Source of the DNA: Paraspadella gotoi
Taxonomy: Eukaryota; Animalia; Chaetognatha
Direction: 5' to 3'
DNA: 64,000 nucleotides
NCBI GenBank assembly: GCA_051294375.1
Contig: CM119271.1
Location: forward strand, 7,007,632-7,071,631
Shown here: in pieces, positions 48,201-51,200 of the stretch
Numbering within the stretch: position 1 is the first letter of the stretch
Layout of the letters: each line of letters begins with the position of its first letter
Translations under genes and position numbers: made by a program
The notes under the pieces: model-generated
What the model was told of the DNA's origin: nothing
Database searches by the model: none
What the model saw: only the letters and a program-made list of their open reading frames with translations

Positions 48201-51200
48201 CTCCAAGAGAAGAATCGGGGCACCTGACGAGAGGAACTCGTCGCAAACAGGTTGCTCTGAGGAAGACCGAAGATCTTGGCAATCCAGCGAAAAACCTGAG
48301 GGTCAAAGTGCCAATCCTGAACTGCTCTCTCGCGAGAAGCCGCATCCGCAACCAGGTTCTCCTCTGAGGAAACATGAACACCCACGATCCGGATCTGAAG
48401 CGAATCTGCTAGAAGAGCTTCTCTCACAACTTCGTGGAGAGATGGCGAGCGGCTGCAAAAAGCGTCGGAGACAAGCAAGGGACACCAAACTGTCCGTCTT
48501 CCACAGAAGATTGTTGTCGCAAATCTGATCTCCGAAGGAACGTAGGAATCTGAGCAGAACCATGAACTCCTTCGCAGTTATATGGAGAGGGGCAAACGCA
48601 TCCTCCCAAATTCCCTGATGAAGGACTCCGCGAAAAAGGAAGCCCCATCCATCAATGGAGGCGTCCGTTGTCACCTCCGAAGTGCAACTCTCCGAGAGAA
48701 TGTCGTCGACTGGCGCTGAACAAGCCCTTGGATTGAGAATCGAAATCCAAAGAAGTTCCTCCTTCGCAGCTTCCGAGAAGAGAACCAACTTCTCCAAATC
48801 CTCTCTGAACGATAAACAAGATAGAGATCGTGCTGAATCCGCGCTGACCTGCAGCGGAGAATCGGAGACGCTGGGATGGCTGCAGCCACATGACCCATGA
48901 GCTGAAGAACCTGATGGGCTTGATGGAGTGATCCCTTCCAAGAGGGATGAAGCCAGAGATCTGAGGGCAGAGATCTTTCGCTGGGGAAGCGCAACTTGGT
49001 GAAGCGCCCCGTCCCACTGGAGACAGCAGAAACTCGAAGTTTCTGAGTAGGGACTAAACTCGACTTCTTGGGGAAGGACGAAGCCTGCATCCTATACTTC
49101 CCGAAAGTAAATAAACAAATAAACACTCTTTGAGTGTTCCTCTCCACGGAAATCTTTAGTAAAAAGCGAAAGATTTGTGCGCTCTGAAGAGAAGTTGCAG
49201 AGCCACTCGGGTGTTGAATAAACACTCCCCATGGACGTGCCCAGAATAAGAATATCGTCGATGTAGAACAGACATCGAATGCCTCTCGCACGAAGCCAGG
49301 CCACCAGAGGGCGAGTCGCCTTGGAAAACAACCAAGGGCCTGTAGCATAACCGAAAAGTAGAACCCTGAACAGGTAGATCTTGCCTCTCCAAATAAAAAG
49401 GCAAAACTTGCGATGATCCTCGTGCAGAGGATATCAATCGAGGCTGCCCAAACTCCTGGTCGCAGCATCTTCCTGAAAAGCCGAAAGAGGCAACAGCCGA
49501 ACTGGAGCATCGAGGAGACACTTGGCGTCCTATGACGCCCCCGACTCCCCCCTCCCGAACGCTTGGTCGAGGAAGTAGACTAGTGGCCAGTTCTGAAAGC
49601 CCCTCTGGACTTGGGGTTGAAACGCTACCTAGAATCCTGGAAAAGGATTAGGTCGAGAAGCTTGACTCCTGAACAGGAAGGAGTGAATCGCAGCAGAAAC
49701 TCCAAAAGAGTAGGTTGAGCTCTTTGGGAGCCGACTGGAAAAAGGAACGCCGAGCTTCAACTAAGGCTGAGTTGAAGGGAGAGGCCAAACATGGTCGCTG
49801 AATCCTTGAGAGGCGCCAAGGCCTCCAGATTCAGCCACGAGCTCGGGATCCGCATCGGAACTCTGAGAGAAACGATGAGACGCAATCCATCTGCTGAATG
49901 CAATACAGAGTGCGCAATGGCACCAGCATCTCTCATGGACCGCACTGCTTGCTTGTAAATAGAGGCTGATTTGCGGCCTAAACAACAGCATCGAACTGCG
50001 CAGACAAACAACTGTCTTGCGCAGAGGTCCAAATCTGGTGGAGAATGCCATCCACCCATGTAGCGAATATAGAGCGCCCTTGACCAGGCTCCCATCCCCT
50101 CTTGAGCTCGCCAGTACCGTCAATAGAACGGAACTCTCTCCATTGTTGACAAGTCCAATCTGATGGAATAGCAGCAGATCTTGTTGCCGGCGAAAAGGTA
50201 TCAAAACCTGTAGCATCAGAAAAAGACGCGAGCTCATCTTCCTCCGAACCAGAAACATCCAAGTCTGGAGAATCGTATAAGGAAGTATTTGGCCGAACAC
50301 AGGTCGGCGCCGACTTGGGGAAAGCCGGGGTAGCAAGGTCGACCCGAGAAGCAGGGGCATGACTCTAGAAACGAATCAGCGAAGATGGAGAATACAGCAC
50401 ACAACGCGAAATCCTCAGGAGCCACGAAGATGTGTACATGTAAAAATAAAAATGAGAAAATATTAGAGAAAAGAACACCAAAAAGACAAAAACAACTCTT
50501 CGAAGCCGCCTCCACCACCCGGTGGTGCCAGGGGTGGACGGCGCGGAGGTGCGTGGTGGAGAGGAGCCATGAAGAATCCCGGTTCCACTTGGAACCATAA
50601 ATTCTATCATGTTTGCTCCTCTCCACCACGCCAATGCTCTGTAACAAGAGCGGCAAGAAGAGAAAAAACAAACAAATAAAAGTCGAATTGGTGGAGCGAA
50701 AAAATTTCGGAAAAAAATTTCACGTAATGTACGCCAAAGGCGAAATTCAAAGCGAATCATAAAAATAAACATACCGCTTAAGAGAGACCATCTCCAGACG
50801 CATCAACCAATGTTCGCATAATAGAAAGCCGGATAGGATGACGTCGAGCTGATTCGTTTCTAGGTACTAGCCGGGACTTCCGAACGCACCTTGTCTGCCC
50901 CCTACCACCATACGCCAAAGAATAAGACGATGCATTCGATCTCTTTGATCGCACCAGACGGCGATGAAGAGAAACCGGCGACGCCCTACCGGCCGATCTC
51001 GCTTTACTGAGCGGAGATGCGGGAGCCGGTCCGGGAGGTGAGGAGGAGGGAGACAGCTCATTGTCCATGAACGGCTCCTGGGCCAGCCCCTTGAGAAGAG
51101 GACGAAGTGCCCGCTCGTTTCGGCCGCTGAAAAGCGGGGCTCGACTCTTGACCGCGAGTCTCAGACAAATAAATGGGCCAAACCAAAAAAACGAAATAAT

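What the first reader, a model, noticed from the sequence alone, without database searches (positions are those of the whole stretch)
50365..51068. DIRS element with a 5'-located ICR inside an apparent spliceosomal intron that splits gag
Seen: all ORFs run on the minus strand, yet the ICR (50551-50640) lies about 1.2 kb from the 5' terminus, upstream of the bulk of gag. Known: in described DIRS1-type elements the ICR sits after the ORFs next to the 3' ITR. Seen: the ICR is bracketed by a strong donor (GCG|GTATGT at 50774) and an acceptor (GCTGATTCGTTTCTAG| at 50365) around a T-rich 410-nt segment. Removing it joins the frame starting MDNELSP (ATG 51068) in phase 0 to the open gag frame [15 protein letters not shown]...DVSGSEEDE. 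The only obstacle is one TAA at 50778-50780, in a copy that carries other decay mutations. Inference: spliced RNA makes protein but lacks the ICR and cannot circularise, while unspliced RNA is the replication template. That would be a splicing-controlled mRNA/genome partition that I do not know from DIRS elements.
Basis: partly seen in the sequence, partly recalled or inferred. Interest (0 to 1): 0.85.

Follow-up and report, generated by a model that had tools for sequence, protein, structure and literature searches.

The report
Retrotransposon's circle signal moved into intron
This jumping gene carries the signal it needs to close into a DNA circle near its start instead of its end, inside what is likely an intron, so spliced RNA would make protein while only unspliced RNA could yield new copies.

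Summary
Confirmed: a DIRS1-like element (46757-51840, minus strand, ATT ends) has its ICR 1.2 kb from the 5' end, ahead of the gag body, and its recombinase stop abuts the right ITR. The ICR lies 3' in 28 of 28 published annotated elements and in all 26 of my 80 loci where I could place it (47). Short-read contigs and diverged subfamilies keep the layout (31); one related family appears to lack a 3' ICR (69, 78).

Majority contigs differ from the window only by small gaps, so the frames are assembly-damaged and the TAA is probably a real stop.

The intron is inferred. Related gags show a phase-1 acceptor footprint (9 of 11 reaching that column; 87), and one family has no in-frame Met from 182 codons above it to 75 below (96). 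No RNA run was found, the donor is unresolved, and no relative's ICR was located.

The scan noted splicing in other DIRS-order elements, none with a 5' ICR. Verdict: new variant; intron spanning the ICR about 55%.

The parts
46757..51840 (-). DIRS1-like tyrosine-recombinase retrotransposon, 5084 nt, ends ATT...ATT
51664..51840 (-). left ITR
   Evidence: 89% inverted match to 46789-46961
51254..51561 (-). degenerate 22-nt tandem array in the 5' leader
50781..51068 (-). upstream S/P/R-rich ORF, candidate first gag exon; frame damaged by indels in this assembly; ends at TAA 50778-50780 if unspliced
50884..50889 (-). candidate donor B (AAG|GTGCGT), best-scoring GT of the element; would be phase 1 and skip the TAA (inferred)
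   Evidence: gap bookkeeping
50769..50774 (-). candidate donor A (GCG|GTATGT), at the switch to T-rich sequence, just after the TAA
50551..50640 (-). ICR: left half 50640-50601, right half 50603-50551, shared AAT junction; folds into one long hairpin
50504..50542 (-). GC-rich hairpin directly after the ICR
50365..50366 (-). candidate splice acceptor AG, at the place where related gags show a YAG|G footprint
49520..50364 (-). gag body (acidic tract, then folded domain), broken over several frames in this assembly; end approximate
   Evidence: aligns to 15 gags; LAP2alpha-like atlas clusters for relative P0175
47900..49510 (-). pol (RT, RNase H, methyltransferase-like), frame-broken; limits approximate
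   Evidence: Pfam RVT_1; blastx to P0101, P0121, P0040
46958..47911 (-). tyrosine recombinase, C-terminal part, frame-broken; its stop abuts the right ITR
46757..46961 (-). right ITR plus right extension

Best explanation
This is a DIRS1-like retrotransposon whose ICR sits in the 5' part of the element, likely inside a spliceosomal intron that splits gag, so that spliced RNA would make Gag but lack the ICR and only intron-retaining RNA would complete replication. Shown: ICR position, termini, recombinase stop abutting the right ITR, and the same flanks in family contigs. From the literature: without its ICR, DIRS-1 is reverse transcribed but does not complete retrotransposition (PMC7192593). 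Inferred: the end-restoring step is intramolecular, so the ICR should work anywhere in the transcript. Inferred: the acceptor at 50365 is used in phase 1 as in relatives. Inferred: the donor is 50889 (in-frame join, TAA left in the intron) or 50774. The layout would enforce itself, because any copy made from spliced RNA loses the ICR and dies, which lets a retrotransposon keep an intron.
For: ICR 5' and no room for it 3'. 28 of 28 annotated elements (PMC3266345 Additional File 3) and 26 of 80 fetched loci with an assignable ICR have it after the recombinase, none before pol. Family-depth contigs run from gag to the hairpin beside the ICR and from the ICR's left half into the upstream ORF; diverged subfamilies cross both candidate boundaries colinearly (records 1, 5, 7 and 2, 12, 19). 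L001 and L002 are one family (99.7% over 797 nt) in the window's clade (local support 0.975). In L001 the 185 nt after the recombinase stop match the window's right ITR (score 51, 0 of 500 shuffles; 17 control loci scored 15-29). In L002 gag opens behind CTTAAT, a pyrimidine tract and TTCAG|G, rank 3 of 140 AG. 9 of 11 gags that reach that column have S, P or V before an invariant G (background 0.36, 74 of 207), with T-rich-codon residues above it and no Met between it and the folded domain. P0220 has Met only at 1, 8, 265 and 440, with the footprint near residue 190; the called starts of its shorter cluster mates are Val. 11 of 16 control 3'-ICR loci have an unbroken gag with a Met within 450 nt of the 5' end; here the gag body opens about 1480 nt in. 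One subfamily has lost the ATG at 50360 (place 50358).
Against: No RNA junction was seen, and no RNA run was available. No relative's ICR was located: no clade contig reaches more than 85 nt above the acceptor, so 'ICR in the intron' rests on this family alone. The acceptor ranks only 43 of 297 and donor A 4 of 281. The TAA is probably in frame in the family, which blocks donor A as an in-frame join. At donor B a related contig has a weak equivalent (loose end at 50899). L002 has an in-frame ATG 30 nt above its acceptor with A at -3, and P0173 has internal Met 8 and 10 residues above the footprint, so these could start gag unspliced. The footprint column was chosen after seeing the alignment and the 9 sequences form about 5 independent groups; 2 of 11 (P0185, P0186) lack it. 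L006, in the same clade, has T-rich, non-ITR-like sequence for 65 nt after its stop and may have a 3' ICR. The L001 match is partly low-complexity and the contig may end early.
Confidence: 0.55

Rival explanations
1. No intron: the upstream ORF ends at a real TAA, the ICR sits in a T-rich spacer between two ORFs, and gag starts at its own AUG (50360), at a non-AUG codon or by reinitiation. The 5' ICR is a relocation without a splicing role.
For: The TAA has no substitution in majority contigs and sits just before the T-rich switch. The ATG at 50360 could reach the gag frame given the unplaced gaps. L002 has an in-frame ATG. T-rich flanks are what ICRs have in 3' spacers too (recalled). Splice-site scores are unremarkable.
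Against: ATG 50360 is lost in one subfamily. The P0179/P0220 family has no usable in-frame Met. V-G, S-G and P-G alternate at one column in an otherwise unalignable region.
Confidence: 0.28
2. The acceptor is real but is served in another way (a donor further up in the leader or ITR, or spliced-leader trans-splicing). The ICR still leaves the mRNA, but the upstream ORF is not a gag exon.
For: The acceptor is the only site supported by relatives; neither donor is. The leader has a further 500 T-rich nt.
Against: Gags below the acceptor have no Met in 9 of 9, so an upstream coding exon is needed. The host group is not identified, so trans-splicing is untested.
Confidence: 0.12
3. The layout is a misassembly through the repeated ICR and termini, or a one-off rearranged copy of a normal 3'-ICR family.
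For: The window is indel-rich inside the element. ICR sequence is very abundant in the reads, and no listed contig spans the whole ICR. L037 shows that assemblers do permute DIRS at the ICR. The recombinase-to-ITR junction was not checked in reads.
Against: Contigs from independent runs link the ICR flanks to gag and to the upstream ORF, with diverged subfamilies colinear. Both ends are clean ATT in host intron sequence. L001 has the same 3' layout.
Confidence: 0.05

Closest known systems
DIRS1-like retrotransposons (DIRS order; DIRS-1 of Dictyostelium and the 28 elements of PMC3266345)
   Same: ITRs, a two-part ICR complementary to both ends, ATT ends with AAT junction, right extension, gag / RT-RH-MT / recombinase with overlap, about 5 kb.
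   Different: The ICR lies at about a quarter of the length, before the gag body, against after the recombinase motif in 28 of 28. The recombinase stop abuts the right ITR. Gag is likely split. 'intron' and 'splic' occur 0 times in PMC3266345, PMC9210276 and PMC3783388.
BARE1 copia retrotransposon (PMC3735527, abstract read)
   Same: Separate RNA pools for translation and for reverse transcription, including a spliced Gag RNA.
   Different: BARE is an LTR element, uses two start sites and capping, and splices to make a Gag-only RNA. Here the intron would carry the signal that completes replication and would split gag itself.
Retroviral unspliced versus spliced RNA (PMC12789967, passages read; packaging signal below the splice donor is recalled, not seen in those passages)
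   Same: Only unspliced RNA serves as genome, because a cis signal is removed by splicing.
   Different: In retroviruses unspliced RNA also makes Gag and the signal acts in packaging. Here Gag would come from spliced RNA and the signal acts after first-strand synthesis.

Membership tests
DIRS1-like | inverted terminal repeats | tested here: met
   89% over 180 nt
DIRS1-like | ICR complementary to the start of the left ITR and the end of the right terminus, with a 3-bp overlap | tested here: met
   95% and 83%; AAT junction
DIRS1-like | NTT trinucleotide at both ends, complementary to the junction | tested here: met
   ATT at 51840 and 46757 (PMC3266345 section 10)
DIRS1-like | RT-RNase H, methyltransferase-like domain and tyrosine recombinase | tested here: met
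   RVT_1 E 6e-7; blastx to pol and recombinase relatives; PF00589 in relative P0154. The MT label rests on the ADxxSR and AFPP motifs listed, not on a profile hit.
DIRS1-like | gag-like ORF1 | tested here: met
   alignment to 15 relatives; atlas LAP2alpha clusters at 0.93 and 0.90, carried by 14% and 11% of members, low recognition score, so a lead
DIRS1-like, as described | ICR at the 3' end, between recombinase and right ITR (usual position; whether it defines the family is a matter of wording) | tested here: not met
   ICR at 50551-50640, upstream of the gag body against 28 of 28. Filed as a variant for this reason.
DIRS1-like | replication through ICR-restored ends and recombinase integration | not testable with these tools
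   needs cDNA or circle-junction detection
PAT-like / Ngaro | split direct repeats | tested here: not met
   self-BLAST shows inverted pairs only, apart from the tandem array
spliceosomal intron | removed in RNA at GT...AG | tested here: inconclusive
   no RNA holder listed; no joints in DNA contigs; acceptor footprint in relatives

The most novel reading that the evidence does not exclude
A whole, widespread clade of DIRS1-like elements has moved its ICR into a conserved phase-1 gag intron. Splicing then sorts RNA into ICR-less mRNA and ICR-bearing template, and intron loss kills the copy, a self-enforcing way for a retrotransposon to keep an intron.
Probability: 0.35. Interest if true: 0.82.

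Novelty: new variant of a known kind. Interest (0 to 1): 0.66.

Why it matters
A natural 5' ICR tests the standing DIRS replication model, which predicts that the ICR works wherever it lies in the transcript; every annotated element I could check has it 3'. If the intron is real, it gives DIRS elements a way to split RNA between translation and copying, and it explains how a retroelement can keep an intron. Pipelines that look for the ICR only near the right ITR would file such elements as defective.

Tried and rejected
RNA: no RNA holder listed. X6 ('RNA?') has depths nearly identical to DNA run X3, so the four runs laid are at most three data sets, all probably DNA. No joints were seen in those contigs; this fits both 'no intron-less copies' and 'no splicing', and contigs drop rare forms, so it is not counted. 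Reads were laid only on 50240-51100; the recombinase-to-ITR junction is unchecked, and 28 substitution rows and 55 gap rows were not shown, so the family's exact frames stay open. Viral-contig scans found no relatives (and 40). A search with an RT piece found nothing. Records behind L001, L002 and L006 are not held. A search for ICR hairpins through read-through peptides had no power: the positive control failed (19 of 60 shuffles as good). Synonymous/non-synonymous counts of subfamily variants exclude one frame at 50274-50307 but do not separate the other two. L037 looked like a second 5' ICR but is a circularly permuted contig. The 85 nt above the L002 acceptor do not align to the window (216 of 500 shuffles as good). 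My first look at host intron edges used offset coordinates and was not used. Paper searches found no 5' ICR or intronic ICR. Subscription reviews and Repbase reports are not in the library, so absence from print is not established; of PMC3266345's five supplements I read one (file S3).

Full report
Anatomy. The minus strand of 46757-51840 holds a 5084-nt tyrosine-recombinase retrotransposon. Self-BLAST gives ITRs at 51664-51841 and 46789-46961 (89%, 180 nt) and an internal region whose halves are complementary to the 5' end (50597-50640, 95%) and to the 3' end (50551-50603, 83%). Both ends are ATT and the halves overlap on AAT, the commonest pattern in PMC3266345 Table 3. The ICR folds into one long hairpin followed by a GC-rich hairpin (z -8.3); the first is expected from inverted ends. 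The order is left ITR, 22-nt tandem array, an S/P/R-rich ORF, T-rich spacer, ICR, hairpin, T-rich spacer, gag body, RT (Pfam RVT_1), RNase H, MT-like part, recombinase. The recombinase stop at 46958-46960 abuts the right ITR, leaving no room for a 3' ICR. The element lies in an intron of an aromatic amino acid hydroxylase gene.

Is a 5' ICR unusual? PMC3266345 and PMC7192593 place the ICR at the 3' end, near the right repeat (passages). In Additional File 3 of PMC3266345 all 28 of 28 annotated elements have it after the recombinase motif. A metagenome scan found 133 relatives among 334 pattern matches and returned 79 loci, plus 1 from the genome collection. By eye from self-alignments, 26 of these 80 show an ICR after the recombinase and none before pol; the rest lack ends. 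One apparent exception, L037, is a circularly permuted contig. Nine paper searches gave no 5' or intronic ICR, but subscription reviews and Repbase are outside the library.

Is it this copy only? Nine runs hold 0.53-0.59 of the element's words. On 50240-51100 the majority contigs have 0 substitutions but 13 gap letters over 454 nt and 5 over 294 nt (records 7 and 1). I read this as unpolished indels in the assembly of a young repeat, not decay (inference; the neighbouring host exon translates cleanly). Contigs link gag to the hairpin beside the ICR (record 1), the ICR's left half to the spacer (record 5), and the spacer to the upstream ORF (record 7). Diverged subfamilies with 9-23 substitutions cross the acceptor (records 2, 19) and donor A (record 12) colinearly, and a deeper relative shares the ICR's upstream flank (record 6). 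No listed contig spans the whole ICR, where summed depth rises about a hundredfold. X6 and X3 have nearly identical depths and are probably one DNA data set, so there is no RNA evidence.

The coordinates, 410 nt, 40% T and the TAA are as stated. But contig lengths and loose ends imply that the window lacks single bases near 50991 and 50975 and two in 50864-50949, has no gap in 50787-50864, and has 5 gaps in 50647-50787. Donor A then gives no in-frame join. The best-scoring GT of the element, AAG|GTGCGT at 50889 (rank 1 of 281, recalled weights), lies above the TAA and would be phase 1 in the frame favoured by a synonymous change in a related contig, but that contig's own site is weak. On the acceptor side two unplaced insertions (50313-50416, and 50240-50313 or 50519-50533) allow phase 1 if both are exonic. 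This is compatible with the data, not shown by them.

Relatives. A tree of five concatenated fragments (69 sequences with at least 3 fragments; L025, L027, L031 and L047-L050 dropped as near-duplicates; midpoint root) puts the window in a clade with L001/L002, L003/L006/L007, L005, P0101, P0121 and P0040 (local support 0.975); all 26 3'-ICR loci lie outside it. L001 and L002 overlap at 99.7%. After the L001 recombinase stop, 185 nt match the window's right ITR (score 51 against 24 +/- 4.5, 0 of 500 shuffles), while 17 control loci score 15-29, the best at 4 of 200; the match is partly low-complexity. L002's gag opens behind CTTAAT, a pyrimidine tract and TTCAG|G (rank 3 of 140 AG). Of 15 gag relatives found with it, 14 were aligned with it; 11 of these 15 sequences reach that column. 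Nine have S (6), P (2) or V (1) before an invariant G, as a read-through YAG|G in phase 1 would give; the background is 74 of 207. Above it the residues are those of T-rich codons (0.38-0.62 against 0.04-0.28 below, in 5 of 7 tested; 0.2 against 0.12 in the other two, which have only 5 residues above), and none of the nine has a Met between it and the folded domain. P0220 reads through about 190 codons above the footprint and has Met only at 1, 8, 265 and 440; the called starts of P0179, P0222 and P0217 are Val. In 16 control 3'-ICR loci, 11 have an unbroken gag with a Met 48-444 nt from the 5' end, 3 start at 660-1031 nt and 2 gave no ORF. Against: the column was picked after viewing, the nine form about five groups, P0185 and P0186 lack the footprint, L002 has an in-frame ATG 30 nt above the AG, L006 does not show an ITR-like sequence after its stop, and no relative's ICR was seen.

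Mechanism. In DIRS-1 the ICR restores both ends by intramolecular pairing of the cDNA; deleting it leaves first-strand cDNA but stops retrotransposition (PMC7192593, passages). That step should not depend on where the ICR lies (inference). If an intron spans it, spliced RNA is a natural ICR deletion: it makes Gag but cannot yield a complete copy, and the intron can never be lost from the lineage. I put the 5' ICR at about 0.95, an intron spanning it at about 0.55, and the clade-wide version at about 0.35. It would work like the RNA pools of BARE1 (PMC3735527, abstract) and like retroviral unspliced genomes (PMC12789967, passages), but by other means. Earlier notes of this scan report splicing in other DIRS-order elements (untested here); look-ups for a 5' ICR or for this sequence returned nothing.

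Verdict. A new structural variant of the DIRS1-like superfamily. The 5' ICR is solid; the intron is likely but unproven, and its donor and phase are open.

Noticed in passing
window 46623-46704 (+): A tRNA-Ser(AGA) gene lies 52 nt from the element's 3' end, both inside one intron of the hydroxylase gene. One case; tRNA targeting was not tested.
   Followed up: no
window, RT region, about 49000-49300: About 30 codons of AT-rich sequence interrupt RT relative to P0101, without GT-AG ends. It may be a small insertion or an assembly artefact; if real, this copy's RT is disabled.
   Followed up: no
window 50559-50616 and 50907-50935: Summed contig depth rises about 100-fold over the ICR core and several-fold over a short motif in the upstream ORF, suggesting many related or non-autonomous elements with the same ends. 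Depth is not copy number.
   Followed up: no
window 51254-51561: Degenerate 22-nt tandem array (about 13 copies) in the leader between the left ITR and the upstream ORF; role unknown.
   Followed up: no
L037 1-97, 747-848, 6152-6219: A DIRS contig circularly permuted at the ICR or circle junction; it mimics a 5' ICR and is a trap for surveys.
   Followed up: yes
P0220 residues 60-190: The read-through peptide above the acceptor footprint runs T-rich-codon, GC-rich-codon, T-rich-codon, like the window's spacer, ICR plus hairpin, spacer. A hint only.
   Followed up: partly
window 18606-22727 (+): A 1373-codon open stretch with five RRM domains; a host gene with one very long exon or no introns.
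   Followed up: no
window 53824-54452 and 11681-12319: Inverted-repeat elements (MITE-like), with shared ends at 12350, 35086, 43133, 52535 and 63944.
   Followed up: no
L080: A DIRS pol and recombinase contig sits in a cyanobacterial MAG, most likely eukaryotic contamination.
   Followed up: no
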